Source: a virus (Duplodnaviria > Caudoviricetes). From it: a DNA stretch of 64,000 nt. Below the pieces are notes generated by a model that was given only the letters and a program-made list of their open reading frames with translations, did not search any database and was not told the DNA's origin. Below are positions 1 through 40,128 of this stretch, piece by piece. A program made the translations under genes and the position numbers. The first letter of the stretch is position 1, and the number at the start of each line of letters is the position of its first letter. The stretch covers positions 14,875-78,874 of IMG/VR virus record IMGVR_UViG_3300013901_000014; one strand, given 5' to 3'.

Positions 1-3000
1 TTGAACGGCATTGTGAACGCCAAGTTGGCCGAGGAGAAGGGCAAAGGCGGTGAAGGCAGGAAGAAGGACTATGTGAAGATAGTGTTGTACACCGAGGACG
101 GGCGGACGTGGAAATACGGTGTTGTGCTGGATGACAAATATGCGCCCAAGAAGACTTCGACCGGCTCCATGCCGTTCTACCTTGGTGACGGCTTCGGCAC
201 GCGGAAGGAGGCGCAGGCATTTGTGGATAAGCACCGCGAGGAGTGGGACGCCAAAATAGCAGACATAGAGAAGGCGCGCCGCGACTTTGTGTATTTCAAA
301 GGCACCGGCGAGCGCACCGGCCAGGACTGGCGCAAGGGTGCTGACGTGAGTGCGGAGCAACTGATGGAGCAGTTCGGCTTCCGCGGCGTGCAGTTTGGCA
401 ACTGGACCAACCAGCGCGACCGGCAGGCTGCGGTGAACGGTGCCTTTGACGCCCTTATGGACTTGGCGCAGATATTGGGAGTGTCGCCGCGCGCGCTGAG
501 CCTGAACGGCGAGCTTGGCCTTGCGTTCGGCTCGCGCGGCGGCGGCAGCGCGAAGGCCCACTACGAGCCGGACGAGGTGGTGATTAACCTCACCAAGACA
601 CAGGGGGCGGGCTCGCTGGCCCACGAGTGGTGGCATGCGCTGGACAACTACTTCGCGCGCCACGGCAACGTGAAGGGCGGCATGGTGACCGAGTCGAAGG
701 GCATAGCGATGCGCGACGAGCTGCGGGAGGCGTTCAACGCCCTCATCGACAGCGTGGCGGGCAGCGACTACAACATCCGCTCGCGCCAGCGCGGCGCCAG
801 CTATTGGGGCCGGCCCGCTGAGGAGACCGCGAGGCTGTTTGCCGCGTGGGTGAGCGACGAGCTGCAGAAGCGCGGCTTGTCGAGTCCGTTCCTTTCTGAC
901 ACCGACCCCGGTGCTGCCGAGCGGTATGCCGAGATGATGTATCGCTTATACAAGGCGATGTATGAGAGTCGCAAGGCGGAGACCGGCGGCAAGGCGATGA
1001 CTTTTGAGGAGTTCAAGAAGACGCCGCTGGCTCTGAGCGGGTTTGTGTTTCCCGGCACGGAGGAGCTTGCGGCATTCGGCGGGCATCTGCGAAACATCTT
1101 CAACACAGTTCAGGAGAAGGTGGACGGGCAGACCGGCAAGACGCTGCTGTATCACCGCGGTCCGGTGGTGGCCGAGCCCAACGAGGCCGAGCAGGCTCTG
1201 CTGGAGGCGGTGAACGGTGTGCTGAAGGACACCGGCATCGAGGTGGTGACCGACACGGACGAGGGCCAGAAAGTGCTGGACGCGGCCAACGGGAATGATG
1301 TCAAGCTGGAGGCGAGCCACAGAAGCGGGGAAGCGGAGGAGCGCAACAAGATGTGGCGCCTCATAGACCGCGCAACGGCCATGTTTACAGGCAAAACAGA
1401 GAAGGAGGCGCGTGAGGCCCGCCGCAAGGAGATGCAAAAAATCACTGCTGAGAGGAAAGAAATGTACGACAGGGTTTTGTCGGGAAACTTCGATGAAGTA
1501 ACTTTGCGGCAGATAGACAACTACATCGATAATTTCTCACCCTACAACAATGAATGGAGACCAATTTCTAAACGACTTCCACAGAAGGCACTACGAGGCT
1601 TGCGAAAAGGAGAACGCGCGAGTGCGGTCGATGTACTTTTCTCACGAATATCTGAAAGCGCAGTCCCAAAGAATGAACGAGCTGGTGCAGAAGGAAAGAG
1701 AAGAATTGAGGAGAAAAAGAAAGAACTCCTCAAAAAGTGGGCAATAGCCACCGGCAACTGGCACACAAGTGTGTCGGACTTCACCGATGCCAAAGAGCCG
1801 CTTGGCAGCGGAAAAGACTCTGACGTATACCAGTCCAAAGACGGAAAGCACGTAATCAAAGTGTCGAAAGGCAAGGACGGCCTTAAGAAGTTCCGCCCCG
1901 ACATTGATGCTGTAACGCTGTTCAACTACATATTCCCTGAAAGTAGATACGAGATTCTGGGCTATGGCGAGGTTGACGGCAAGTTCGTGAAGTTCCTCAA
2001 GCAGCCAGTAGTGGACTTCACCGGCAGCAAACCGCTGTCGGCGGAGGAGCGTGTCGCCTATATGGCCGACATGGGCTTCAAGCCCGTCAACAAGGAGAAG
2101 ACCGCTTTCAGCAACGGCACTATCGTGGTTGCCGACCTGCAGGGCAACAACATCGTCAGAGACAAGTCGGGCAACATCCGCGTGATTGACGCAGACGTGA
2201 AGCTGCACACCAAGGACTTTGGCGGGCAGTACAGCTATCCGCCCGTTGAGGCCGACACCGCCCTGCCTCAAGCCAACAACGGCGGCAATGAAAAGCCGCG
2301 CATGCAGAAGGTGTACCACGGCAGTGGGGCGGACTTCGACGAGTTCGACAACTCGCACATGGGCGAGGGCGAAGGCGCGCAGGCATACGGCTGGGGCACA
2401 TACGTGACCGAGGTTGAGGGAATTGGCCGGACTTATGCGAAAGCGACTGCCCGTTATGATGACAACTCGTCGGAGGAAGTGCTGAATAGGGTCGAATCTT
2501 TGGCCGCAGATTTGATTAAAGACCGCTTCGGCTTTAGGCCGGGGCTTAGCGTTTCGGCCCGCGGTGACAACTACGACTTGGAAATTCCATCGGACAAAAA
2601 GACACTGGAGCAGATTAAATCATATTTCGACGAGTATCCGTATATGTGGAATGCGAAAGTCGACAGGGAATTGAGTTCGTTCAATCTGGACGATGCCGCT
2701 TCAAGAAGAGAGTTTGCCAACTGGGTTTATGAAATTGTTGAGCCGTTTGCGGCGGACGCCGTAGGCTATGCGCAGAAAGAAGAGACCGCCTCCCGCCACC
2801 TCTATACTGTTGAAATTCCCGATGACAACGGCGAGAACTATATTGATTATAATGGCAGGATAAGCGACATTCCATCACAGAAAATAGATGCAATATGCAC
2901 GGAGCTTGAAAAACTCGGATGGAAACGTAAGGACTTGCCGAGCATGGTAAGGCTCACGGATGGCTATGGCAATATAGTACTTAATCCCAATGCTGCGGGA

Positions 3001-6000
3001 GCAGACCTCTACGAGGAGATTAAGGTTGCGTTGAAGAGTCAGAAACTGGCGAGCGAACTGCTGTCAAGAGCCGGCTTTGCCGGCATAAAATACCCTGCTG
3101 AGTATATGAGCGGCGGGCGCAAGGACGGCGCCAAGAACTATGTGATTTTCAACGAGAAGGACGCAAGGATAACCGACCACGTGCGGTTTTTCCGCACGTC
3201 CGGCGGCGAGGCCTACGGCTTCACGGTGGGCGGCAAGATATACGTGGACCCGCGCATAGCCACTGCCGACACGCCGATACACGAGTACGCCCACCTGTGG
3301 GGCGACATGATGCGCCGCGTCAACCCCAAGGCGTGGGGCGACATCGTGCGCCTGATGAAGGGCAAGGGCGGCCTTTGGGACTGGGTGAAGAAGAACTACC
3401 CGGAGCTGGAGACCGACGACGAGGTGGCCGACGAGGTGCTGGCGCAGTTCTCGGGCAAGCGCGGAGCCGAGCGGCTGCGCGAGGAGATGCGCAAGACTGC
3501 CGAGGGCAGCGGCAGCATAACCGAAAAGGCCAAAGCCATAAGCGCGCTGCAGCGGGTGAAGGAGGCCCTTGGCAGGTTTTGGCGCGGAGTGGCCGAGCTG
3601 CTGCACATACGCTTCACCACGGCCGAGGAGGTGGCCGACCGCGTGATGGCCGACCTGCTGCACGGCGTGGACCCGCGCAAGGTCTCTAACGACAACAGAT
3701 ACAACGAGTTTGCCGAAAAACACAAAGTAGACGCAAACGAGGTGAAGGACTATGCCACTGCCATTAAGGATGGCAACCTGATGGCCGCCAATAGGGCATT
3801 AAGTGAAATTCGCCGCACTTTGCGAGTGGCGCACAGGGAAATGAACCTGCAAGAGTTCGGCAAATTCTTTCGGCCAATAAATCAAGAACTGGCAGAGCGG
3901 TTCGGCGATATTGAAAAATTGCGTCAAGAACACATTGCAGCTGCAGAGCGAGAGCACAACGCTATGGAGGCTGCACGCAAGAAAGCCGAAGAGGAGGAAG
4001 CAAAGAAGAGGAAGCGTCAGGAAGAATTGTCAATGCTCACTGCCGACGAGATAGACAAACGCTATGCGGAAGCCCTTGAAAGAGGCGACGAGGCGGCGGC
4101 AAGAGAGATGCTTGACGAGGCTGCACGCCGCAATGGATATGGCGACACGGAGAGCGACTACCAGGGCGTGGGCGCATGGGTGGCCCCTTCCAACCCAGGC
4201 TATGAGAGTGATGAGGCGCGACGCGCCGATGTTGAGGACAATGCGCCTGACGTGAATTTGGAGGACATGGCGTTAGGGTACAACCTACAGCCGGATGACT
4301 ATTTTACGCACCCGGAGCGTTACTCACAGGACACGCCGCACGGACGGGAGTCGACGCAAGCCATACACGCCGCACTCGAAGCGCTGAAGAGAGGCGACAA
4401 GGATGTGAAGGTGAAGGTGTACAGAGCCGTGCCGACATCGGTGAAAGAGGGAAGTCTGAGAAACGGCGACTGGGTGACCCCATCGAGAAAGTATGCCGAG
4501 ATGCACGGAAAGAGCAGGCTGGAAGGCAAATACCGCATCATAGAAGACGAAGTCCCGGCCAAAGACCTTTGGTGGGACGGCAACGATGCCAACGAGTTCG
4601 GATATGATGACGGCAGGGGGTACAAGTACAAGAACACCAAGAACAACAGAAAGCTGAACGACTTGGTGACGCGCGATGATGACGGCAACATCATTCCACC
4701 GTCAAAGCGTTTTAACGAGCGTGAGCAAGATGTGCGCTATTCGCTGCGCCACGTGTTTGGCGGCAACAGCGGCTATGTGGGCTACTCGATGAGCAAGCGC
4801 GCGGCGCAGGCGCGTGAGGACGGACGCTATCCGAAAACCGACTTCCGGAAGGAGTACAGCGTGACGCCGAAGACCTTTGACGCGCTTGTGGACGCTGGCG
4901 TGATTGACAGCGGCGAGTGGCACCACACCAGCATGTATGGCAACAAGACTCCGTTCTACGGGTGGAAGCCCATGTATGACGCAGTGTATGCCGCCAACAA
5001 AAAGGAAGTTGACAAGATGGCGCGGACCCTCAAGATGCAGCAGACTGAGGCTGAGTTTTCGGACTACCTTGACAACGACAACCCTTACCGCTACCGTCCC
5101 ACTTCGGAGGAGTACCAGAAGAAGATGGGCGATATAGACCGGCAAGAGAGTCATGCCGCCAGAGACATAAACCTGATGTATGACGATGCCTACAACCCTG
5201 AGACCGAGCGGAAGAGGATGCAAGAGCTTCAATCGCTACGCGAAAAGAGCGGCAAACTTAAAGACGAGGTGCGCCGCCAATACCCCGAGGACGCAGCGAT
5301 AGAGGCCGAAAACAGGAAAGGTGTCGACTGGCACGTTGAGCAGATTGAGAAGCGCAACAAGGAGAGAGAAGCCCTAAGGCAGAAATTCCATGATTACTTT
5401 GACGCGAAGCGCGACGAGCTCGTGTACGATGAGATGGAAAAGGCTGGCATACTCACTATGGGCGCGGACGGCCCGCATTGGAGCAAGCCTAAATATGCAG
5501 AGATATTCAACCATTATAAAGACGCGGCCATTGACACCATCGCAGAGGCAATGGCTGAAAGGCTGAAGAACCCCTACGACGAGGACTATGCCGAAGGGAT
5601 TTCCGAATACCGGAAAGACCTGCAAAAGGTCAAGGCTGACAAATGGGCTGAAGGCAACGCCTTGAATGCAAAGTATAGGGACAAGGAGTTCCGAAAGCAA
5701 CACCCTGACTACTACAAGCGAGAAAAAATGCTTGAAGAGGAAAAAGAGCGGCTCAGAGAGAAGTATGAGGCTCTTGAGGAAGATGTGCTCAAGCGTCACC
5801 CGGAGGAGTTGGAACGTAGGCAGAAAGCGTTTGAGTGGCCATCTGATGAGGAGGCGCAGCAACAAGCCCGAGAGAAACTACTTGCCGAACGCTTGCAACA
5901 GTTCTTTGAGGAAGACACCGCCGACCCGGACGAGGGGAAGAAGTTTCGTCTGCTGGACGATGACGACCCGCAGGCTCAGGAGCTGTCGCTGCCCGAAGGC

Positions 6001-9000
6001 GAGCCCAAGGAGACGCTTGCGCAGGCCATGGTGCGCCGCGTGAAGGAGCTGGCGGCGAAGCTTGGCGCGAAGGTGCGCATCGTCACCAGCGCCGATGATC
6101 TGCCCAAGACTCCGGGCAGCCGCCAGCGCAGGATGAAGGGCATGTATGACACCCGGACGGGCGAGGTGACAATAGTGATTGGCAACCACGAGAACCTTGC
6201 CGACGTGGAGAACACGGTGCTTCACGAGGCTGTGGGGCACAGGGGCTTTCGCGTGCTGTTTGACACCAAGGAGAAGTTCGACCACGCCATGGACGAGCTG
6301 TACCGCGTGTCGGGCGGGAAAATCAGGAAGTGGATAGACGACAAAGTGCGCAAGCTGTATGACGACGAGGTGGACCGCATAATGGAGCGCAAGCGCAAGG
6401 AGCGCCGCGCCAGGGGCGAGGGCCCGAGCGAGCACCATTTGGAGGACATGGCCGCGGCCGCCATCGAGGCGAGCAAGAAGAAGGACCAGTTCCGCCGCGA
6501 GGCCACCGAGGAATACGGCGCCCGCCTGGCTGGCCGCATAGGCGAGAAGGGCTTTGAGAAGCTGAGCGCGGAGGAGCAGACCTTCTGGGGCAGACTGAAG
6601 TCGATGCTGCAGAAGGCGCTGCAGCGATTGGCCGAGGGGCTGAACATCACCGGCAGGCACGAGTGGACCGACAAGGACTGGGCCTACGTGCTGCACGAGG
6701 CTTACAAGCGCGAGAAGAACGGCGGCAAGCCGAGCATCTTTGACGAGGCCGACACCATAGCCATGCGCATGCGCACCGGCTTCGGCGAGGGCAAAGAGGA
6801 AGGCCGCAAGATGACCACCCTATCAGGGGAAGAGGCCAAGCAGGCTCTTAATGAGATTTTCAGCGCGGAGTCACATACGGTCAAGCCAGAGAAGATTTCG
6901 TCTCTTGCAAAGTTTAGGGATATATTCAGTAAGCCGATACGCACGTTTTTGGGTGAAGTTATAAAGGTCAAGGATGCCGTGTGGAACAAGGTCCTCCGCG
7001 AAAACCGACAGAACATTTCCGGTGCAATACTGCCCACTTTGCAAAATGCGGACTTCGCCATCCGTGATACGGACGGAAGCATACTGTATGTGAAGCGGTT
7101 CTTGAACAGTACGGGAGAATCCACCTATAACGTGGCGGTTGTAAACAAACATGGCGAACTGGAGGACTACATCAGTTCTGTTCACATAAAAACAAATAAC
7201 AACCTGCTGAACAAAATAGGAAAAGGTGCCGAACTGCTAATACCGGAAAACCGGAATGGCTATGGGCACGAAGTCCCAAGCAGTTCAACACCCGATGCAA
7301 AGATAGACATAGAAAACGAAAGCGGCAACACTTTCGGCTCGAATAAGTACAAAAAATCTTCTGATGAGAACCCGGACGAGGGCATGATGTTCCGCGACGG
7401 TGACGATGACGACATTGGCGATGTGGACCTTGGCGACGCTGTGGACAAGATGCGCGATGCGGCAGTGGAGAGCAACGCCAACAACCTGCAGGCCAAGCGC
7501 GAGGCGATGAAGGCCATAGGCGGCAACCTGAGCAAGCTGCGTCAGGCTATGTCGCGGCAGAAGGTGTATGACAAGGGCACTGTGAAGAGCGTGACCGACA
7601 TGGCGCGCGAGATGCTGCAAAACGGCATGCTTGACAAGCTGAGCGGCTACGAGGCCAAGCGCATACTCTCGGCCGCGGCCAACGTGACGGGCGCGGAGAA
7701 CACGGCCAGACAGATTAACAAGCTGATGGACGTGATGGTGGACAACCAGCTGCGCAACGCCGGCGACACATTCGGCAAGCTGCTGCACTCCAAGGGCACG
7801 CGCGTGAACGCAAGCGGCGTGGAGGTGCAGGGCAAGCTCGACCCCGACGGCGCGGCCATAGTGGACGCCCTGAAGAAAGGCGTGCAGCTTGACAAGGAGG
7901 AGCTGAACGGGCGCATCGGCAAAGCGCTTGACAAAATCGGCAGCGAGGACAAGGTCATTGCCGACCAGGCCGCCAACGAGCTGGCCGGCCTGCAGCTGGC
8001 GTCCCGCTACGTGGAGGACATCAAGGGCAGCAAAGCCGAAGAGACAGAACTGCGCGAGAGCCTGAAAGAGGCCAAGGCGCAGAAAGACGCCGGCAAGATG
8101 AGCGCGGAGGCCTACAAGCAGTATTGCGAAGCCACCGAAGATGCCATACGACAGAACAAGATAGAGCGTGCCGACGCCTACCGACAGCTGATTGCACAGC
8201 TTGGCGGAGTGATGGGAGAAAGCGCAGAGCGCGCCAAAGCGTGGCGGGAGGCCGAAAAGCAGCGGGTGCAGGACATTCAGCACAACGCCAACTCGGACAT
8301 GCAGGGCAGGCCGTGTAACGAGCACCACAAACCATCATCACTACAGAAGTTGTGCAACAGCGACCTTATAAGGGGTCTCTTGATGCCACTTGCGACCTTT
8401 GAGCAGATGCTGCGAATGTTCGGCAACAAGAACGTGCACGGTGAGGGCTATCTGTGGAACCGCTTTGTGCGCGGCTGGCTCCGTGCTTCGGAAAACGAAT
8501 ACAGCGGTTACCGCGACGCGCTGAAAGAACTTGACGACAAAGTGAGCGAGATATTCGGCAAGAAGATGCGCTGGGGCGACATATTCAGCCTTGAGCGCAA
8601 GCTGCCCACCATGGAGGTGAAGTTTTGGGACGGCGGAGAGATGAAGCCGCACACGCTGACGCAGGGCAACCTTGCATACATCTACATGGTGGACAAGATG
8701 AGCGACGGGCGCATGAAGCTGCGCGCGATGGGCATCACCGAAGGAGATGTGGAGCAAATCGCAAAAGCACTTGACCCGAAACTGAAGAAACTTGCCGACT
8801 GGATGCAGGACGAGTTCCTGGTGCAGAGGCGCAACAAGTACAACGAGGTGCACAAGCGCATGTTTGGGGCATCGATGGCCGCCATTGAGAACTACTTCCC
8901 GCTGAAGATACTCTCGGGTGCACGCACGGAGAACGTGGATGTGGCGGACGATACCGGTGAGCCTACAATGACATCCACCACCACTGGCAGCATTGTCAAG

Positions 9001-10965
9001 CGCCGCCGCAACAACCTTGCGCTCGACATCACCAATGCAGACGCATTCTCGGTAATTCTTGAGCATTTGCAAGACATGGAGCACTGGGCCGCATACTCAG
9101 AGTTTAACCGCGACCTGAACACGCTGCTATCATACAGGCGGTTCAAGAACCAGGTGATGAACATGAGCAGCGCATACGGAGCCGGTGCAACACTGTGGAA
9201 AAACTTCCGCAATGTGTGCCAGCTGGCGGCTGGTTCATACCGCCCGCCGGTGGCGACACTTGACAAGACAATGGTAAACCTCGCCAAAGGCGTGACCGCT
9301 GCAAAGATTAGCTTCAGAATATTCACCGCCATCAAGCAGTTGCTTTCGTTCCCCGCTTATCTGCCTGACGCGAGCGCAAGGTATCTGCTTCAGAACCTTG
9401 CGAACCCAGTGGGCGCATGGAAATGGAGCATAGAGAACCTGCCGCTATTCCACAAACGATGGAACAGCCGCATGGCAGGCGACCCGCGACTGCTTAAAAC
9501 TGAAATGGACTGGAAGATGTGGCGCAGCCGCGTGGTGCAAATGGCGTCAAAATACGGCATGAGCCCCAACGCATTTGTGGATGCGGTTACCGTGGCAATG
9601 GGTGCGCACGCCATCTACAAGACCAAACTCGCCAAGTACCTCAAGCAGGGCTATGACAAGGACAAGGCCGAAGAGAAGGCGCGCCAAGACGCGGAGATTG
9701 CATACAACCAGACACAGCAGTCAAGCGAAGGTGCGTTCTTGTCGACAATGCAGGCCGACAGAACGTGGGGCAGCGTGCTGTTCACAGTGTTCCGCAACTC
9801 GGCAATGTCGTACACACGTCAGGAGTATGACGCGCTGCGCAACCTTGCGCGCAAGTTGACCACGAAGGGGTACAAGGAAAAGAGCATTGGGTTTATGGCA
9901 AAGCAGATGGTGCGTGACGGCCTTGACGAAAACACCGCATGGAGGAATGCAAAGCGCACATACAGCCGCTCAATATGGCGCGAGTTTGTGCGGGTGGCCA
10001 CGTTCGGCTACATATTGCAGCTTGCGTGGAACCTTGGCGCATACTTGCCGTATCTGTTGCTCGGAGACAACGACGACGACAAGAAGAAGATGCTCGAAGA
10101 CGCAGGACTTCACGCACTTGTTGGCAGCGTGGAGGGCTTGACTGGCGGTGACGTGCTGAGCACAGCCGGCCAGTATGCACTCACGGGCGAGGGCACTATT
10201 GGCAACTTAAAGAAGGAAATGCCACTTACCTCAGACTTGCATGCAATCTACCAGAGCTTCGACTACGATGCAGTGCAAGCCACCAACGACGTGCTGAATT
10301 TGCTTGTGCAGGCAGGCGTGGGCGTTAACCCGCAATCGCTGACCGATGCCGTGGTGGGCGTGATGGACTACTGCGAAAACAACCCGGCAGACGCGCGTGA
10401 GTGCGCATTGCTGATAGCGCGCATATTCAACACTCCGCAGAGCCAGCTCGACAAGATTTATTTCGACGAGATAGACCTTGACGGCAGCGACGCACGCAAA
10501 TTGTCGCCCAAGCAGATTGCCGAGCGCTACGCAAAATACAAACTAAGACGTAACACACCGCTCACTGCTTGGATGTATGGCGAGGACGGCAGAAAGGAGC
10601 GTGTCGCCAAGTATAAAAAAGCAGCCAACGATGTGGCAAAGGAAAGACTTTCGGCGTTGACCGACAGCCGCAGCGGTGAGGACTTCACAGACTGGCGCAA
10701 TGAGTACAAGCAGACATCTGAAGGTTGGGGCCGCATAAACGGGCTGAAGGATACAGACCCCGACCAATATGCGGCAGAAAGGAAGCAAATCGCGGGAACA
10801 CCGGCCGACACACGCTACCGCATAGAGAACCGCTACAAAGCACGCATCAACAAACTGACCGATGCGTGGCTTAAGGCCAAAACACCAGCAAGGCGGATGA
10901 AACTCGCCGATGCGATGGTTGCCCTGAAAAAGGACGAAGCCAAGCATCTTGCAGCGGGTAAGTAG
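1..10965 (+). CDS. Large polyvalent protein (5' truncated), probable virion-ejected protein
   Basis: 3654-aa open frame. LPD1-like zincin (FGFRGVQFGNW...HEWWH, nt ~367-640), polyvalent kinase (LGSGKDSDVY, VIK, DLQGNNI, VIDAD; ~1800-2200), ART-like (VYHGSGADFDEFD...YGWGTY; ~2310-3180), HEYAH (~3280) and HEAVGH (~6223) metallopeptidase motifs, second ART-like (VYRAVP...GDWVT; ~4415-4620), PBECR-like nuclease (~6900-7230), long helical C-terminal part. Confidence 0.9.
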   Translation: MNGIVNAKLAEEKGKGGEGRKKDYVKIVLYTEDGRTWKYGVVLDDKYAPKKTSTGSMPFYLGDGFGTRKEAQAFVDKHREEWDAKIADIEKARRDFVYFKGTGERTGQDWRKGADVSAEQLMEQFGFRGVQFGNWTNQRDRQAAVNGAFDALMDLAQILGVSPRALSLNGELGLAFGSRGGGSAKAHYEPDEVVINLTKTQGAGSLAHEWWHALDNYFARHGNVKGGMVTESKGIAMRDELREAFNALIDSVAGSDYNIRSRQRGASYWGRPAEETARLFAAWVSDELQKRGLSSPFLSDTDPGAAERYAEMMYRLYKAMYESRKAETGGKAMTFEEFKKTPLALSGFVFPGTEELAAFGGHLRNIFNTVQEKVDGQTGKTLLYHRGPVVAEPNEAEQALLEAVNGVLKDTGIEVVTDTDEGQKVLDAANGNDVKLEASHRSGEAEERNKMWRLIDRATAMFTGKTEKEAREARRKEMQKITAERKEMYDRVLSGNFDEVTLRQIDNYIDNFSPYNNEWRPISKRLPQKALRGLRKGERASAVDVLFSRISESAVPKNERAGAEGKRRIEEKKKELLKKWAIATGNWHTSVSDFTDAKEPLGSGKDSDVYQSKDGKHVIKVSKGKDGLKKFRPDIDAVTLFNYIFPESRYEILGYGEVDGKFVKFLKQPVVDFTGSKPLSAEERVAYMADMGFKPVNKEKTAFSNGTIVVADLQGNNIVRDKSGNIRVIDADVKLHTKDFGGQYSYPPVEADTALPQANNGGNEKPRMQKVYHGSGADFDEFDNSHMGEGEGAQAYGWGTYVTEVEGIGRTYAKATARYDDNSSEEVLNRVESLAADLIKDRFGFRPGLSVSARGDNYDLEIPSDKKTLEQIKSYFDEYPYMWNAKVDRELSSFNLDDAASRREFANWVYEIVEPFAADAVGYAQKEETASRHLYTVEIPDDNGENYIDYNGRISDIPSQKIDAICTELEKLGWKRKDLPSMVRLTDGYGNIVLNPNAAGADLYEEIKVALKSQKLASELLSRAGFAGIKYPAEYMSGGRKDGAKNYVIFNEKDARITDHVRFFRTSGGEAYGFTVGGKIYVDPRIATADTPIHEYAHLWGDMMRRVNPKAWGDIVRLMKGKGGLWDWVKKNYPELETDDEVADEVLAQFSGKRGAERLREEMRKTAEGSGSITEKAKAISALQRVKEALGRFWRGVAELLHIRFTTAEEVADRVMADLLHGVDPRKVSNDNRYNEFAEKHKVDANEVKDYATAIKDGNLMAANRALSEIRRTLRVAHREMNLQEFGKFFRPINQELAERFGDIEKLRQEHIAAAEREHNAMEAARKKAEEEEAKKRKRQEELSMLTADEIDKRYAEALERGDEAAAREMLDEAARRNGYGDTESDYQGVGAWVAPSNPGYESDEARRADVEDNAPDVNLEDMALGYNLQPDDYFTHPERYSQDTPHGRESTQAIHAALEALKRGDKDVKVKVYRAVPTSVKEGSLRNGDWVTPSRKYAEMHGKSRLEGKYRIIEDEVPAKDLWWDGNDANEFGYDDGRGYKYKNTKNNRKLNDLVTRDDDGNIIPPSKRFNEREQDVRYSLRHVFGGNSGYVGYSMSKRAAQAREDGRYPKTDFRKEYSVTPKTFDALVDAGVIDSGEWHHTSMYGNKTPFYGWKPMYDAVYAANKKEVDKMARTLKMQQTEAEFSDYLDNDNPYRYRPTSEEYQKKMGDIDRQESHAARDINLMYDDAYNPETERKRMQELQSLREKSGKLKDEVRRQYPEDAAIEAENRKGVDWHVEQIEKRNKEREALRQKFHDYFDAKRDELVYDEMEKAGILTMGADGPHWSKPKYAEIFNHYKDAAIDTIAEAMAERLKNPYDEDYAEGISEYRKDLQKVKADKWAEGNALNAKYRDKEFRKQHPDYYKREKMLEEEKERLREKYEALEEDVLKRHPEELERRQKAFEWPSDEEAQQQAREKLLAERLQQFFEEDTADPDEGKKFRLLDDDDPQAQELSLPEGEPKETLAQAMVRRVKELAAKLGAKVRIVTSADDLPKTPGSRQRRMKGMYDTRTGEVTIVIGNHENLADVENTVLHEAVGHRGFRVLFDTKEKFDHAMDELYRVSGGKIRKWIDDKVRKLYDDEVDRIMERKRKERRARGEGPSEHHLEDMAAAAIEASKKKDQFRREATEEYGARLAGRIGEKGFEKLSAEEQTFWGRLKSMLQKALQRLAEGLNITGRHEWTDKDWAYVLHEAYKREKNGGKPSIFDEADTIAMRMRTGFGEGKEEGRKMTTLSGEEAKQALNEIFSAESHTVKPEKISSLAKFRDIFSKPIRTFLGEVIKVKDAVWNKVLRENRQNISGAILPTLQNADFAIRDTDGSILYVKRFLNSTGESTYNVAVVNKHGELEDYISSVHIKTNNNLLNKIGKGAELLIPENRNGYGHEVPSSSTPDAKIDIENESGNTFGSNKYKKSSDENPDEGMMFRDGDDDDIGDVDLGDAVDKMRDAAVESNANNLQAKREAMKAIGGNLSKLRQAMSRQKVYDKGTVKSVTDMAREMLQNGMLDKLSGYEAKRILSAAANVTGAENTARQINKLMDVMVDNQLRNAGDTFGKLLHSKGTRVNASGVEVQGKLDPDGAAIVDALKKGVQLDKEELNGRIGKALDKIGSEDKVIADQAANELAGLQLASRYVEDIKGSKAEETELRESLKEAKAQKDAGKMSAEAYKQYCEATEDAIRQNKIERADAYRQLIAQLGGVMGESAERAKAWREAEKQRVQDIQHNANSDMQGRPCNEHHKPSSLQKLCNSDLIRGLLMPLATFEQMLRMFGNKNVHGEGYLWNRFVRGWLRASENEYSGYRDALKELDDKVSEIFGKKMRWGDIFSLERKLPTMEVKFWDGGEMKPHTLTQGNLAYIYMVDKMSDGRMKLRAMGITEGDVEQIAKALDPKLKKLADWMQDEFLVQRRNKYNEVHKRMFGASMAAIENYFPLKILSGARTENVDVADDTGEPTMTSTTTGSIVKRRRNNLALDITNADAFSVILEHLQDMEHWAAYSEFNRDLNTLLSYRRFKNQVMNMSSAYGAGATLWKNFRNVCQLAAGSYRPPVATLDKTMVNLAKGVTAAKISFRIFTAIKQLLSFPAYLPDASARYLLQNLANPVGAWKWSIENLPLFHKRWNSRMAGDPRLLKTEMDWKMWRSRVVQMASKYGMSPNAFVDAVTVAMGAHAIYKTKLAKYLKQGYDKDKAEEKARQDAEIAYNQTQQSSEGAFLSTMQADRTWGSVLFTVFRNSAMSYTRQEYDALRNLARKLTTKGYKEKSIGFMAKQMVRDGLDENTAWRNAKRTYSRSIWREFVRVATFGYILQLAWNLGAYLPYLLLGDNDDDKKKMLEDAGLHALVGSVEGLTGGDVLSTAGQYALTGEGTIGNLKKEMPLTSDLHAIYQSFDYDAVQATNDVLNLLVQAGVGVNPQSLTDAVVGVMDYCENNPADARECALLIARIFNTPQSQLDKIYFDEIDLDGSDARKLSPKQIAERYAKYKLRRNTPLTAWMYGEDGRKERVAKYKKAANDVAKERLSALTDSRSGEDFTDWRNEYKQTSEGWGRINGLKDTDPDQYAAERKQIAGTPADTRYRIENRYKARINKLTDAWLKAKTPARRMKLADAMVALKKDEAKHLAAGK
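1476..1506 (+). promoter_or_regulatory. Internal Bacteroidetes sigma-A promoter inside the polyvalent ORF
   Basis: TTTG (1476-1479), 19-nt spacer, TAACTTTG (1499-1506) = exact TTTG-N19-21-TAnnTTTG consensus. Confidence 0.7.
1550..1747 (+). CDS. Nested out-of-frame 65-aa ORF, candidate antitoxin of the downstream kinase domain
   Basis: ATG ~40 nt after a consensus promoter, A at -3 and -6, helical charged peptide; ends immediately before kinase motif I. Confidence 0.55.
   Translation: MNGDQFLNDFHRRHYEACEKENARVRSMYFSHEYLKAQSQRMNELVQKEREELRRKRKNSSKSGQ
7212..7292 (-). ncRNA. Candidate antisense three-way-junction RNA at the end of the PBECR-like domain
   Basis: 14-bp outer stem 7279-7292/7225-7238 (two G-U pairs only on minus strand), inner hairpins 7263-7278 and 7243-7254, U-tract at 7221-7224. 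Confidence 0.55.
7298..7328 (-). promoter_or_regulatory. Antisense promoter inside the polyvalent ORF
   Basis: CAAAGATA at 7298-7305 = TATCTTTG on minus; TTG element 20 nt upstream (7326-7328). Confidence 0.6.
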
Positions 10966-27173: not shown

Positions 27174-27256
27174 GCTATATAAAAGATGAGCCGCGGCAAT
27201 GAAGCCACGGCCCAAAGGTGTTATAAGAGCAAAAAATAATTGCTTGTACAAAGATA
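27168..27256 (-). ncRNA. Candidate minus-strand rod-shaped RNA with own -7 box, directly downstream of int
   Basis: CAAAGATA 27249-27256 (TATCTTTG on minus); 9-bp IR 27168-27176/27228-27236; inner 10-bp stem with two minus-strand G-U pairs. Confidence 0.4.
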
Positions 27257-27284
27257 GCACGAAGAACTGACAGCGGCAAATCAT

Positions 27285-38370: not shown

Positions 38371-38402
38371 TTTGTGTTGCAAATATATTTTGTGTAACTT
38401 TG
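38371..38402 (+). promoter_or_regulatory. Putative late promoter
   Basis: TTTG 38371-38374, 20-nt spacer, TAACTTTG 38395-38402. Confidence 0.75.
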
Positions 38403-38511: not shown

Positions 38512-40128
38512 ATGACGACAAAACAGGTTAAATTATCCCAAGTCAAGGTCAATAAGGAGAACCCTCGCACGATCACAAAGGACAAGTTCCAGAAGCTTGT
38601 AAACTCGCTGCTGGTGTTTCCTGACATGCTCGAACTCCGTCCCGTCGTGGTTGACGCCCGCATGGTGGCGCTCGGCGGCAATATGCGCCTTAACGCCCTC
38701 AAGGAGATCTCCAAGATGGCCGGGGCCGAAATCGAGCGGCGGCTTGGGGATATGCCGGAGTACAGGGTGCTGACAGAGGCCGAGCGCCAGCGTCTCGTTG
38801 AGCGATGGACGGGCTGGCTCGGCAACCCCTCGGTACCGGTAATCGACGCCCGCGCGCTGACAGAGGCCGAGCGCCGGCAGTTCATCATCAAGGACAATGT
38901 CAGCTTTGGTGCCTGGGACTACGATGAGCTTGCGAACAACTGGGAAGACACGCAGCTTGAGCAATGGGGCATGGACGTGTGGAGCTGGAACGACAGCCCG
39001 GCAGGGGGCGAGCCCGGCAATGCGTCATCCTCTCCTTCCGATGCTCCGCTTGACGACGGGGAGGTCTACGATGTACAGGCTGAGGAGCCGAAAAAGACAG
39101 GCACCATCGAGAAGCGATTCCTAATACCCCCGTTCTCGGTGCTGAACAGCAACAGCGGGAGGTGGAAAAAGCGCAGAAACTATTGGCTTTCGCTTGGAAT
39201 AAAGAGCGAGATAGGACGGCACAAAGGACTCACATTTGCGTTGTCGGCGCAGCCTCCGGGGGCCTATGAGAAGAAGAGTAAACTCGAGGCGGAGCTTGGC
39301 CGAACCTTGGGCTGGGACGAGTTCGCCCAAATGTCCCCAGACGCCATCACTATGACTGGGACGTCAATATTCGATCCTGTAGTGTGCGAGCTGGCCTACC
39401 GATGGTTCATGCCGTCGGGCGACGGCCTTGTGATAGACCCGTTCTGCGGCGGCAGCGTGCGCGGCATAGTGGCCGCCCTCGTGGGCAAGCGGTATTGGGG
39501 TAATGACCTTCGCCAGGAGCAGGTGGACGCTAACATTGCCAATGCCGGTGAGGTTTGCCACGGCAACATGATGCCCGCATTCTCATGCGGCGATAGCTGT
39601 GACATTAAAGTCCTGTATGACAACGGAGGCAAGGCCGATCTCATCTTCTCGTGCCCGCCATACGCAGACCTTGAGCGATACAGCGATGACGCGCGCGACA
39701 TCTCAACGATGAAGTATCCCGATTTCTTGCAGAAATACAATGAGATCATCGCACAGGCCTGCTCCCTTCTCAAGGACGGCAGATTCGCGGTATGGGTCGT
39801 TGGGGAGGTGCGCGGCAAGGACGGCGAATACTATAACTTCGTTGGTGACACGATAGCGGCGTTCAAGGCCGCCGGGCTAAAATACTACAATTGCTTCGTG
39901 CTCTACAACAGCACTTGCAGTATAGCCATGCGCATAACACGGACATTTAAGACGCGTAAATGCGGCCCCTGCCATCAGTACGTTCTCGTGTTCTACAAAG
40001 GAGATCTTGCCAACATCAAGGACGAGTTCGAACCCGTCGACCTGTCATATTTGACCGAGACCGAGGGCGGTGACGATTTAAATGCTGAAGACGATGATGA
40101 AACAGACGAAACCAATGCGGATGAGTGA
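38512..40128 (+). CDS. ParB-like domain + DNA amino-methyltransferase fusion
   Basis: VKVNKENPRTI/RPVVVD/LGGNMRL N-terminus; IDPFCGG SAM motif and SCPPY catalytic motif. Confidence 0.85.
   Translation: MTTKQVKLSQVKVNKENPRTITKDKFQKLVNSLLVFPDMLELRPVVVDARMVALGGNMRLNALKEISKMAGAEIERRLGDMPEYRVLTEAERQRLVERWTGWLGNPSVPVIDARALTEAERRQFIIKDNVSFGAWDYDELANNWEDTQLEQWGMDVWSWNDSPAGGEPGNASSSPSDAPLDDGEVYDVQAEEPKKTGTIEKRFLIPPFSVLNSNSGRWKKRRNYWLSLGIKSEIGRHKGLTFALSAQPPGAYEKKSKLEAELGRTLGWDEFAQMSPDAITMTGTSIFDPVVCELAYRWFMPSGDGLVIDPFCGGSVRGIVAALVGKRYWGNDLRQEQVDANIANAGEVCHGNMMPAFSCGDSCDIKVLYDNGGKADLIFSCPPYADLERYSDDARDISTMKYPDFLQKYNEIIAQACSLLKDGRFAVWVVGEVRGKDGEYYNFVGDTIAAFKAAGLKYYNCFVLYNSTCSIAMRITRTFKTRKCGPCHQYVLVFYKGDLANIKDEFEPVDLSYLTETEGGDDLNAEDDDETDETNADE

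What the first reader, a model, noticed from the sequence alone, without database searches (positions are those of the whole stretch)
1476..1747. Perfect promoter and nested out-of-frame 65-aa ORF inside the giant gene, just before the kinase domain
Seen: TTTG-N19-TAACTTTG matches the Bacteroidetes sigma-A consensus exactly; ~40 nt downstream is an ATG with A at -3 and -6 opening MNGDQFLNDFHRRHYEACEKENARVRSMYFSHEYLKAQSQRMNELVQKEREELRRKRKN..., which stops at 1747, ~50 nt before kinase motif I. The main frame has no ATG between the promoter and the middle of the kinase, so this transcript could make the peptide but not an intact kinase. Inference: a kinase toxin / small antitoxin pair (HipA-like logic) captured with its promoter, the antitoxin surviving as a dual-coded overlap.
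Basis: partly seen in the sequence, partly recalled or inferred. Interest (0 to 1): 0.8.

Follow-up and report, generated by a model that had tools for sequence, protein, structure and literature searches.

The report
Hidden small gene inside phage kinase
A 65-residue protein gene with its own promoter is written in a second reading frame inside a giant phage effector gene, just before the kinase domain. Gut Bacteroidales keep orphan copies of it after the surrounding phage gene has decayed, so it probably matters to both phage and host.

Summary
The motif TTTG-N19-TAACTTTG (1476-1506) and the +1-frame ORF 1550-1747 lie inside a 5'-open polyvalent-protein gene (1-10965) of a complete, integrase-bearing 78.9-kb virus record.

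In the window alone the ORF is unremarkable. This gene has seven alternative-frame ATG ORFs of 50 aa or more, and P(open) is 0.08.

Comparison settles it:
- The frame is open, with an ATG, in all 27 nested homologues examined.
- Host-frame synonymous codon identity is 0.88 over 1549-1745, against 0.55 in the kinase (p=4.5e-19).
- The best 66-codon window of the whole alignment starts at 1549.
- Both promoter boxes are frozen at synonymous sites, while the spacer varies.
- In 14 stand-alone chromosomal copies the small frame has 0 stops inside the ORF; the host frame has 27 and the third frame 52.
- Homology to the phage gene erodes from both sides down to promoter plus ORF.

The product is a new family with no Pfam, PHROG, PADLOC or NCBIfam hit, predicted as a helical hairpin.

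Stand-alone Kinase-PolyVal genes of Bacteroidia carry an analogous nested +1 ORF. A role as kinase partner (antidote or immunity) is plausible but untested. The scan noted this stretch before only on this same genome.

The parts
1..10965 (+). 3' part of the giant polyvalent-protein gene (host frame, frame 1; open at the window's 5' end)
   Evidence: Pfam finds LPD5, LPD1, Kinase-PolyVal and ART-PolyVal. The genome is a 78.9-kb virus record rated 100% complete.
1441..2265 (+). Conserved kinase cassette of the host frame (aa 481-755): a helical N-terminal extension plus the kinase
   Evidence: Pairwise amino-acid identity among homologues is 0.6-0.95 here and 0.2-0.45 in the flanks. The AF2 model of aa 469-759 has pLDDT 87 and pTM 0.87.
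1476..1479 (+). -33 box TTTG of a Bacteroidetes sigma-ABfr-type promoter
   Evidence: The codon at 1477 has synonymous identity 1.0. The box is kept in 26 of 26 nested upstream regions aligned on the -7 box (as T[T/A/G]TG) and in most stand-alone copies, including ones whose spacer has been replaced.
1499..1506 (+). -7 box TAACTTTG (consensus TAnnTTTG)
   Evidence: Codons 1498-1506 have synonymous identity 1.0, against 0.39-0.85 in the spacer (0.39-0.62 at four of its five codons). The box survives a V-to-L change in the host frame (CTAACTTTG). It is present in 43 of the 47 loci returned by the peptide search, within 130 nt upstream of the match. The consensus is cited from PMC7366714.
1550..1747 (+). 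Nested +1-frame gene for a 65-aa protein (stop included), predicted as a helical hairpin with a basic tail
   Evidence: The frame is open, with an ATG, in all homologues. Synonymous suppression of the host frame matches these coordinates exactly. The gene is intact in stand-alone copies whose host frame is broken. pN/pS is lowest in this frame. The AF2 model has pLDDT 85.
1711..2208 (+). Kinase-PolyVal domain (PF18762), host-frame aa 571-736
   Evidence: Pfam E=5.6e-36, 124 bits against a cut-off of 27. The G-loop, the VIK lysine, the D..N loop and the IDAD motif are invariant in A6. Foldseek gives weak ePK-like matches.

Best explanation
**What it is.** Window 1476-1747 holds a genuine, independently transcribed gene overprinted on the giant polyvalent-protein gene of a temperate Bacteroidales phage.

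**How it is expressed (inferred).**
- A sigma-ABfr-type promoter (-33 TTTG, -7 TAACTTTG) is embedded in the coding sequence. It would start a short-leader mRNA near 1513.
- On that mRNA the first ATG (1550) opens the +1 frame.
- The product is a 65-aa helix-turn-long-helix protein with a basic C-terminal tail.

**Dual coding (shown).** The same nucleotides encode, in the host frame, three helices of the N-terminal extension that packs on the Kinase-PolyVal domain. Both readings are therefore constrained.

**Most likely role (inferred, not shown).**
- The small protein is probably the dedicated partner of the adjacent kinase, acting as a neutraliser or immunity factor.
- Made from its own host-type promoter, it would be independent of late transcription of the giant gene, for example in the lysogen.
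- It would keep the kinase of the resident or an incoming related phage in check.
- Bacteria that retain only the promoter and small gene from decayed phage fragments would hold it as an orphan immunity gene.

**Odds.** I put the gene and promoter being real at about 0.9. The kinase-partner role stands at about 0.45-0.5.
For: **The gene is real**
- The +1 frame is open from a conserved ATG to the same stop in all 27 nested homologues tabulated, and in 8 further viral loci found with a kinase-only query.
- Given the host protein and codon usage, the per-sequence chance of an open frame is 0.055 at the median.
- Host-frame synonymous codon identity is 0.879 over 1549-1745, against 0.547 in the kinase and 0.478 upstream (Mann-Whitney p=4.5e-19). 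The best 66-codon window of the alignment starts at 1549.
- In 14 stand-alone copies the stops inside the ORF coordinates number 0 in the small frame, 27 in the host frame and 52 in the third frame.
- Homology to the phage gene ends at different points in different loci, but always leaves the promoter and ORF.
- pN/pS is 0.47-0.52 in the small frame, 0.73-0.79 in the host frame and about 1.0 in the third frame.
- Indels are in-frame, for example a 6-aa insert in L074-L076.
- A profile search finds 52 cluster representatives, mostly 55-120 aa, that were called as separate genes.

**The promoter is real**
- The boxes are invariant at synonymous sites while the spacer is free.
- The boxes and their 19-nt spacing persist in non-coding stand-alone copies whose spacer has been replaced (L063, L064).
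- The modal gap from the -7 box to the ATG is 25 nt. This fits the 23-nt modal 5' UTR of B. thetaiotaomicron (PMC7366714).
- The full promoter motif recurs in this phage far more often than shuffles predict (3 matches vs 0.17 expected); the match at 38371-38402 (+) lies upstream of the ORF at 38512.

**The link to the kinase**
- The cassette of promoter, small ORF and kinase is the conserved unit within otherwise mosaic polyvalent proteins.
- Every relative in this kinase clade carries the ORF.
- Stand-alone ~215-aa Kinase-PolyVal genes were found in 39 of 401 Bacteroidia genomes, with no conserved neighbours in the 29 loci examined. They carry their own nested +1 ORF ending about 22 nt into the kinase domain. 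Synonymous identity there is 0.73-0.94, against about 0.43 in the rest of the gene.
- Two isolate genomes hold the orphan small gene but no Kinase-PolyVal anywhere.
- The phage encodes an integrase.
Against: - There is no expression, interaction or toxicity data, and co-folding could not be run.
- Distant family members lie next to HTH_3 genes, with no trace of a kinase. The protein may therefore act independently of the kinase.
- The two nested-ORF families (A3 and A5) show no detectable homology (hhalign probability 1.6%). The shared geometry could be convergent, or could reflect a translational role rather than a shared partner function.
- The sequences share ancestry, so the p-values overstate independence.
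- The kinase has not been shown to be toxic.
Confidence: 0.5

Rival explanations
1. The gene is real, but its function does not involve the kinase. It would be a moron-type small gene, for example a lysogeny-expressed exclusion factor, regulator or anti-defence protein. It happens to be overprinted on the kinase's N-terminal extension and is retained by hosts for that other function.
For: - Distant stand-alone members sit beside Xre-type HTH_3 genes or DUF5763, in regions that look like mobile elements, with no kinase remnant.
- Orphan copies have no conserved neighbours.
- Its own constitutive-type promoter inside a late virion gene, in an integrase-bearing phage, is typical of morons.
Against: - The gene co-occurs with this kinase clade in every case.
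- The cassette is conserved as a unit.
- An independent nested ORF occupies the same position in stand-alone Kinase-PolyVal genes. That is hard to explain if position relative to the kinase were irrelevant.
Confidence: 0.28
2. The small protein or its translation is a positive factor for the kinase. It could be an activating subunit or chaperone. In the stand-alone genes it could be a leader ORF whose translation controls kinase translation, as mok does for hok.
For: - In stand-alone kinase genes the two start codons lie 7-19 nt apart behind one promoter.
- Ten of 29 such loci lack a kinase-frame ATG.
- The geometry is conserved in both families.
Against: - In the phage the kinase is translated as part of the giant protein and needs no internal start.
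- Orphan copies persist in genomes with no kinase at all.
- The peptide sequence itself is conserved, not merely the act of translating it.
Confidence: 0.1
3. The +1 frame is reached by programmed ribosomal frameshifting from the giant ORF. This would give a truncated polyvalent protein ending in the small-protein sequence, rather than an independently initiated protein.
For: - The region is A-rich (CTCAAAAAGTGG near 1725-1736).
- A few database proteins are hybrids of the host frame and the small frame (P0030, P0040, P0056).
Against: - A conserved ATG sits 21-54 nt behind a conserved promoter in every locus in which a -7 box was found.
- Stand-alone copies start at that ATG with no upstream ORF.
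- The hybrids join the frames at different points and look like deletions in decaying loci.
- No canonical slippery heptamer lies upstream of 1550.
Confidence: 0.03
4. The frozen synonymous sites reflect a non-protein element (a structured RNA, a DNA site or an antisense gene), and the open frame is a by-product.
For: A minus-strand frame is also open across the region in most loci (window ORF 1542..1925 on the minus strand).
Against: - There is no Rfam hit.
- The predicted fold is no better than shuffles (z=-0.47).
- The constraint stops at 1747, whereas the minus-strand ORF runs on to 1925 through baseline-variable sequence.
- The minus frame is broken in L063.
- pN/pS is lowest in the + small frame, and indels keep that frame.
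Confidence: 0.03
5. A chance ORF next to a chance promoter-like motif, with no function.
For: In the window alone both features are within reach of chance.
Against: All the comparative results count against it.
Confidence: 0.01

Closest known systems
Overprinted (out-of-frame, same-strand) genes of phages, e.g. lambda Rz1 inside Rz, or phiX174 E inside D and B inside A
   Same: A complete small ORF lies in a shifted frame inside a larger phage gene. Both products are constrained, and synonymous-site suppression of the host frame is the diagnostic signature.
   Different: - Here the nested gene has its own host-type promoter inside the coding sequence of a ~6000-aa virion effector gene.
- It sits at a defined position relative to one enzymatic domain.
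- It also survives as a free-standing gene in bacterial chromosomes after the host gene decays.
Toxin-immunity logic of polymorphic toxins, and orphan immunity genes of Bacteroidales (acquired interbacterial defence islands)
   Same: - A small gene is tightly linked to one effector domain.
- Orphan copies occur in genomes that lack the effector.
- The toxin part decays while the small gene is retained.
   Different: - The immunity gene normally follows the toxin domain as a separate ORF. Here it is written in another frame inside the effector gene.
- Neutralisation has not been tested.
- The effector is phage-delivered, not T6SS- or CDI-delivered. This comparison rests on my own knowledge of those systems.
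HipBA-type kinase toxin-antitoxin modules
   Same: A protein kinase paired with a small, separately translated protein encoded at its 5' side. The stand-alone kinase genes are solitary, self-contained modules in variable contexts.
   Different: - The kinase is PF18762, with a minimal ePK-like fold, not HipA.
- The small protein has no HTH and no similarity to HipB.
- The overlap is almost total rather than a few bases.
hok/mok overlapping reading frames
   Same: A second reading frame overlaps the start of a toxin gene on the same mRNA. This resembles the stand-alone kinase genes, where the two starts lie 7-19 nt apart.
   Different: mok matters through its translation, not its peptide. Here the peptide sequence is conserved, and it is kept without the kinase.
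Polyvalent proteins of phages and conjugative elements (Kinase-PolyVal, ART-PolyVal, LPD domains)
   Same: The host gene is a typical member.
   Different: I found no report of embedded out-of-frame genes or internal promoters in polyvalent-protein genes. That search covers only the held library.

Membership tests
Bacteroidetes sigma-ABfr promoter | -7 box TAnnTTTG | tested here: met
   TAACTTTG lies at 1499-1506. It is kept in 43 of the 47 loci returned by the peptide search, within 130 nt upstream of the match. Synonymous identity at its codons is 1.0. The consensus is cited in PMC7366714.
Bacteroidetes sigma-ABfr promoter | -33 box TTTG at about 19 nt from the -7 box | tested here: met
   TTTG lies at 1476-1479 with N19 spacing. 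The box and its spacing persist in stand-alone copies whose spacer has been replaced.
Bacteroidetes sigma-ABfr promoter | A mapped transcription start a few nt downstream of the -7 box | not testable with these tools
   No transcriptome data exist for this uncultured phage. This needs dRNA-seq or 5'RACE.
Overlapping (dual-coding) protein gene | The alternative frame is open, with a start codon, across diverged homologues | tested here: met
   All 27 nested, 8 further viral and 14 stand-alone copies are open. The chance expectation per sequence is 0.055 at the median.
Overlapping (dual-coding) protein gene | Host-frame synonymous variation is suppressed over exactly the overlap | tested here: met
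   0.879 against 0.547, p=4.5e-19. The best window starts at 1549.
Overlapping (dual-coding) protein gene | Purifying selection acts on the alternative-frame protein itself | tested here: met
   pN/pS is lowest in the small frame (0.47-0.52). The frame is intact where the host frame carries stops. The distances are saturated and the sequences are related, so this is supportive rather than exact.
Overlapping (dual-coding) protein gene | Evidence of translation (Ribo-seq or mass spectrometry) | not testable with these tools
   No such data are available.
Kinase-PolyVal (PF18762) | Profile match above the gathering score, with catalytic motifs present | tested here: met
   124 bits against a cut-off of 27. 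The G-loop GxGxDS, the VIK lysine, D..N and IDAD are invariant in A6.
HipBA-type toxin-antitoxin | The toxin is a HipA-family kinase | tested here: not met
   The only kinase family hit is PF18762. The nearest folds are ePKs such as DAPK1, and only weakly.
HipBA-type toxin-antitoxin | The antitoxin is an HTH DNA-binding protein | tested here: not met
   No Pfam, PHROG, PADLOC or NCBIfam hit. The AF2 model is a two-helix hairpin.
HipBA-type toxin-antitoxin | The toxin arrests growth and the antitoxin neutralises it | not testable with these tools
   This needs co-expression assays.
Effector-immunity pair with orphan immunity genes | The small gene is tightly linked to the effector domain | tested here: met
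   It is always found overlapping the N-terminal extension of this kinase clade.
Effector-immunity pair with orphan immunity genes | Orphan copies occur in genomes without the effector | tested here: met
   G002 (Prevotella sp. AGR2160) and G003 (P. conceptionensis) hold the small gene but have no PF18762 match. The kinase remnants in L027, L054 and other loci carry stops.
Effector-immunity pair with orphan immunity genes | The immunity protein binds and neutralises the effector | not testable with these tools
This needs pull-down and rescue assays.

The most novel reading that the evidence does not exclude
Giant polyvalent effector genes of phages may carry out-of-frame immunity genes for individual toxic domains, each with its own host-type promoter. 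This would solve the problem of pairing an antidote with a domain buried in a single multi-thousand-codon ORF. Gut Bacteroidales would then salvage these embedded genes from phage DNA as orphan defences against phage-injected kinases. The same 'antidote nested in the toxin's own reading frame' design would also underlie the solitary Kinase-PolyVal genes found in about 10% of the Bacteroidia genomes sampled.
Probability: 0.3. Interest if true: 0.88.

Novelty: new variant of a known kind. Interest (0 to 1): 0.74.

Why it matters
- **An unannotated protein family.** Gene callers almost never see it. Only 6 close proteins turned up in a 5.8-billion-protein index. It is nevertheless under clear selection in temperate Bacteroidales phages and in their hosts.
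- **Regulatory and coding capacity inside polyvalent genes.** It shows that polyvalent-protein genes can hide promoters and second genes. This changes how these giant genes should be annotated.
- **A handle on Kinase-PolyVal.** The domain has no known target or regulation. This gives a partner protein to test and natural orphan copies to use in phage-sensitivity assays.
- **A possible new gene architecture.** If the partner is an antidote, this would be a toxin-immunity architecture with the immunity gene nested out of frame. It would also be a new class of host-acquired anti-phage immunity.
- **A second family awaiting study.** The nested ORF in the stand-alone kinase genes suggests that the arrangement is general rather than a single accident.

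Tried and rejected
**Searches on the small protein that found nothing useful**
- Pfam, PHROGs, PADLOC and NCBIfam gave no meaningful hit.
- The ESM Atlas gave no usable hit.
- Foldseek against the PDB gave no match for the 65-aa model.
- A profile search against PDB sequences returned only short apolipoprotein A-I matches. I read these as amphipathic-helix composition, not homology.
- Rfam found nothing in 1300-2000.
- The RNA fold z-score is -0.47, so a structured-RNA reading was dropped.

**Homology and context tests**
- hhalign between the two nested-ORF families (A3 and A5) gave probability 1.6%. Homology is therefore not claimed.
- I looked for conserved neighbours of the orphan copies and of the stand-alone kinases and found none.
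- I looked for tandem or array-like copies of the small gene and found one per locus.

**Readings considered and set aside**
- The antisense-gene reading was rejected, because the constraint ends at 1747 while the minus-strand ORF runs to 1925.
- The programmed-frameshift reading was rejected on the conserved ATG and promoter, and on stand-alone copies that lack any upstream ORF.

**Literature**
- Searches for overlapping genes in polyvalent proteins and for Kinase-PolyVal found nothing relevant.

**Errors and limits**
- One call failed on a wrong argument and one script failed on a missing key. Both were corrected.
- Co-folding of the peptide with the kinase could not be run with the tools offered.
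Full report
**1. What is in the window**

- Positions 1-10965 (+) are the 3' 3654 codons of a giant ORF that is open at the window's 5' end.
- Pfam finds LPD5, LPD1, Kinase-PolyVal (aa 571-736, 124 bits) and a sub-threshold ART-PolyVal match. The gene is therefore a polyvalent protein.
- The window lies in a 78,874-bp IMG/VR virus record rated 100% complete.
- The record encodes a tyrosine integrase upstream of the window, so the phage is probably temperate.
- G+C is about 58%, and homologues come from Muribaculaceae, Prevotella and other Bacteroidales MAGs and viral contigs.

**2. The observation**

- All the sequence statements are correct:
  - TTTG at 1476-1479, 19 nt of spacer, then TAACTTTG at 1499-1506.
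  - ATG at 1550, with A at -3 and at -6.
  - A 65-codon ORF in frame 2 that ends at 1747, about 53 nt before the kinase G-loop.
  - No host-frame ATG before 2062.
- On this sequence alone neither feature is compelling.
  - The exact motif is expected 0.08 times in the window, and 8 of 100 shuffles hold one.
  - Frame 2 of this same gene holds seven ATG ORFs of 50 aa or more, up to 125 aa.
  - Resampling synonymous codons of the host protein leaves this frame open 8% of the time.
- With 18-20 nt spacing the full motif occurs three times, against 0.17 expected. The match at 38371-38402 (+) lies upstream of the ORF at 38512. The motif therefore looks meaningful in this phage.

**3. Comparative test of the nested ORF**

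- Searches with the host-frame protein, the peptide alignment and the kinase alone returned about 70 loci.
- In every nested homologue, down to about 46% peptide identity, the +1 frame is open from an ATG to the same stop.
- The chance of that, given the host protein and codon usage, is 0.055 per sequence at the median (range 0.004-0.33). It held in 27 of 27 sequences.
- I built a codon alignment of 16 non-redundant homologues and measured the codon identity of amino-acid-identical pairs.
  - It is about 0.48 upstream and about 0.55 in the kinase.
  - It is 0.88 over 1549-1745 (Mann-Whitney p=4.5e-19).
  - The best 66-codon window of the whole alignment starts at 1549.
- This is the standard signature of an overlapping functional element, and its edges match the ORF.

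**4. Stand-alone copies**

- Fourteen loci carry the small ORF with no long overlapping frame. They lie in unrelated chromosomal settings, for example:
  - between mazG and dtd;
  - next to tRNA-Glu;
  - beside a TonB-dependent receptor gene, a GH127 gene or htrA.
- Similarity to the phage gene ends at different points in each locus, but always spares the promoter and ORF.
  - In L026 (=L045) it runs from the -7 box to the stop codon.
- Inside the ORF coordinates the small frame has 0 stops. The host frame has 27 and the third frame 52.
- pN/pS is lowest in the small frame, at 0.52 in stand-alone copies and 0.47 in nested ones. The host frame gives 0.79 and 0.73, and the third frame about 1.0.
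- A 6-aa insert in one subgroup keeps the frame.
- A profile search of 1.84 billion cluster representatives finds 52 members, mostly 55-120 aa and called as separate genes.
- The word-index search had found only six close proteins. Gene callers evidently miss the nested form.
- I conclude that this is a real protein-coding gene.

**5. The promoter**

- Codons 1477 and 1498-1506, which carry the boxes, never vary synonymously. The spacer codons vary more freely (0.39-0.85, most of them 0.39-0.62).
- A V-to-L replacement in the host frame still preserves CTAACTTTG.
- In stand-alone copies with no coding constraint upstream, the spacer has been replaced but TTTG, the 19-nt distance and TAnnTTTG remain (L063, L064).
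- The modal distance from the box to the ATG is 25 nt.
  - The window's lineage has lost that ATG and uses one 43 nt after the box.
  - Close relatives keep the 25-nt start.
- These distances fit the sigma-ABfr consensus and the 23-nt modal 5' UTR reported for B. thetaiotaomicron (PMC7366714).
- The TSS itself is inferred.

**6. The two products**

- The small protein has no family match.
- With the 41-sequence alignment A3, AF2 gives pLDDT 85. The model is a helix at 9-26, a turn, and a long helix at 32-64 ending in a basic tail. Foldseek finds nothing.
- Conserved positions are polar: NDFH, WNE.C, S.E...AQS.R.
- The host-frame segment over the overlap is not a linker.
  - The model of aa 469-759 has pLDDT 87 and pTM 0.87.
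  - Its helices lie at model residues 60-67, 71-86 and 95-116, and they lead into the kinase strands.
- Both readings therefore look structured.
- The kinase keeps its catalytic motifs and has a minimal ePK-like fold.

**7. Link to the kinase**

- The unit conserved among otherwise mosaic polyvalent proteins runs from about 1441 to 2265. It comprises the promoter, the small ORF and the kinase.
- A query made from the kinase domain alone recovers 11 viral loci. The eight tested, six of them new, all hold the small ORF.
  - 39 have a match. This tally includes one unpublished genome, G184; no other claim rests on it.
  - Most matches are solitary ~215-aa genes. The 29 loci examined share no conserved neighbours.
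- These genes do not contain the A3 family.
- They do carry another conserved +1-frame ORF of 45-49 aa (A5). It starts 7-19 nt after the kinase start, behind a TAnnTTTG box, and stops about 22 nt into the kinase domain.
- Synonymous codon identity is 0.73-0.94 over those first ~55 codons and about 0.43 afterwards. Host-frame amino-acid identity is low there.
- A3 and A5 are not detectably homologous.
- Two isolate genomes with orphan small genes have no Kinase-PolyVal anywhere.

**8. Interpretation**

- Shown:
  - a real overlapping gene with a selected internal promoter;
  - its obligate association with this kinase clade in phages;
  - its survival in hosts after the kinase has decayed.
- Inferred:
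  - The small protein is made from host-type transcription, independent of the late giant mRNA.
  - It acts on the kinase, most simply as a neutraliser or immunity factor.
  - Orphan copies then serve as host immunity genes.
- Against a strict kinase link, distant members lie beside HTH_3 genes with no kinase trace. A kinase-independent moron function is therefore the main rival.
- The cofactor or leader-ORF, frameshift, RNA or antisense, and chance readings are weaker, for the reasons given under the rivals.

**9. Comparison and novelty**

- Same-strand overprinted genes are known in phages, so the kind is not new.
- The following features are new as far as the held literature shows:
  - an internal sigma-ABfr promoter and a complete gene inside a polyvalent effector gene;
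  - a fixed position relative to one enzymatic domain;
  - recurrence of the same geometry in solitary kinase genes;
  - salvage of the gene as orphan copies by the hosts.
- I class it as a new variant of a known kind. If the antidote reading holds, the gene architecture would be new.

**10. Caveats**

- The homologues share ancestry, so the p-values overstate independence.
- p-distances are saturated at synonymous sites.
- Many loci are from MAGs whose binning is unreliable. Several carry Firmicutes names yet have Bacteroidales-like content.
- No expression or biochemical data exist.

Noticed in passing
L093-L121 (stand-alone Kinase-PolyVal loci in Bacteroidia genomes), about 125 nt upstream of the Pfam match to about 22 nt inside it: There is a second, unrelated nested +1-frame ORF family (A5, 45-49 aa, motif SFQERAKLG..LSKQ.PVTL, basic tail). 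It overlaps the first ~50 codons of solitary ~215-aa kinase genes. Synonymous identity is 0.73-0.94 there, against about 0.43 in the rest of the gene. Ten of 29 loci have no kinase-frame ATG.
   Followed up: partly
window 27249-27280 (-) and 38371-38402 (+): These are the only other full TTTG-N18-20-TAnnTTTG matches in the window. The second lies about 110 nt upstream of the 538-aa ORF at 38512. They are probably genuine phage promoters.
   Followed up: no
G000:C1:3485-3970 (outside the window; locus L078): A tyrosine integrase (PF00589, 60 bits) lies in the same 78.9-kb virus record, so the phage is probably temperate. A weaker second match lies at C1:42234-42398 (-).
   Followed up: no
window 1525-1552, compared with L001/L033: The window's lineage (with L006/L032) has lost the usual ATG 25 nt after the -7 box and starts 18 nt further on. 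This shortens the N-terminus from MSHQ.T.TGD to MNGDQ. The start codon has shifted within one clade.
   Followed up: partly
proteins P0028, P0030, P0040, P0056: These database proteins switch between the host frame and the small frame at different points. One example is a 2116-aa polyvalent protein that ends in the C-terminal half of the small protein. They look like deletions in decaying loci, but could be checked for real trans-frame products.
   Followed up: no
L055 (=L025) about 2390-2720: A ~320-bp remnant of the phage cassette (promoter plus small gene) sits alone between the housekeeping genes mazG and dtd/uvrC in a Bacteroidaceae MAG. How such a small fragment was inserted is unexplained.
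   Followed up: no
L123 77-684; L127 342-1428: Distant members of the small-protein family lie directly after, or divergent from, Xre-type HTH_3 genes and next to a DUF5763 gene. L127 still has TAACTTTGCAG..ATAAAC upstream.
   Followed up: partly
window 1542-1925 (-) and equivalents: A minus-strand frame stays open across the overlap in most loci. This is probably a by-product of the codon content of the plus-strand frames. It is broken in L063, and it extends beyond the constrained window.
   Followed up: partly
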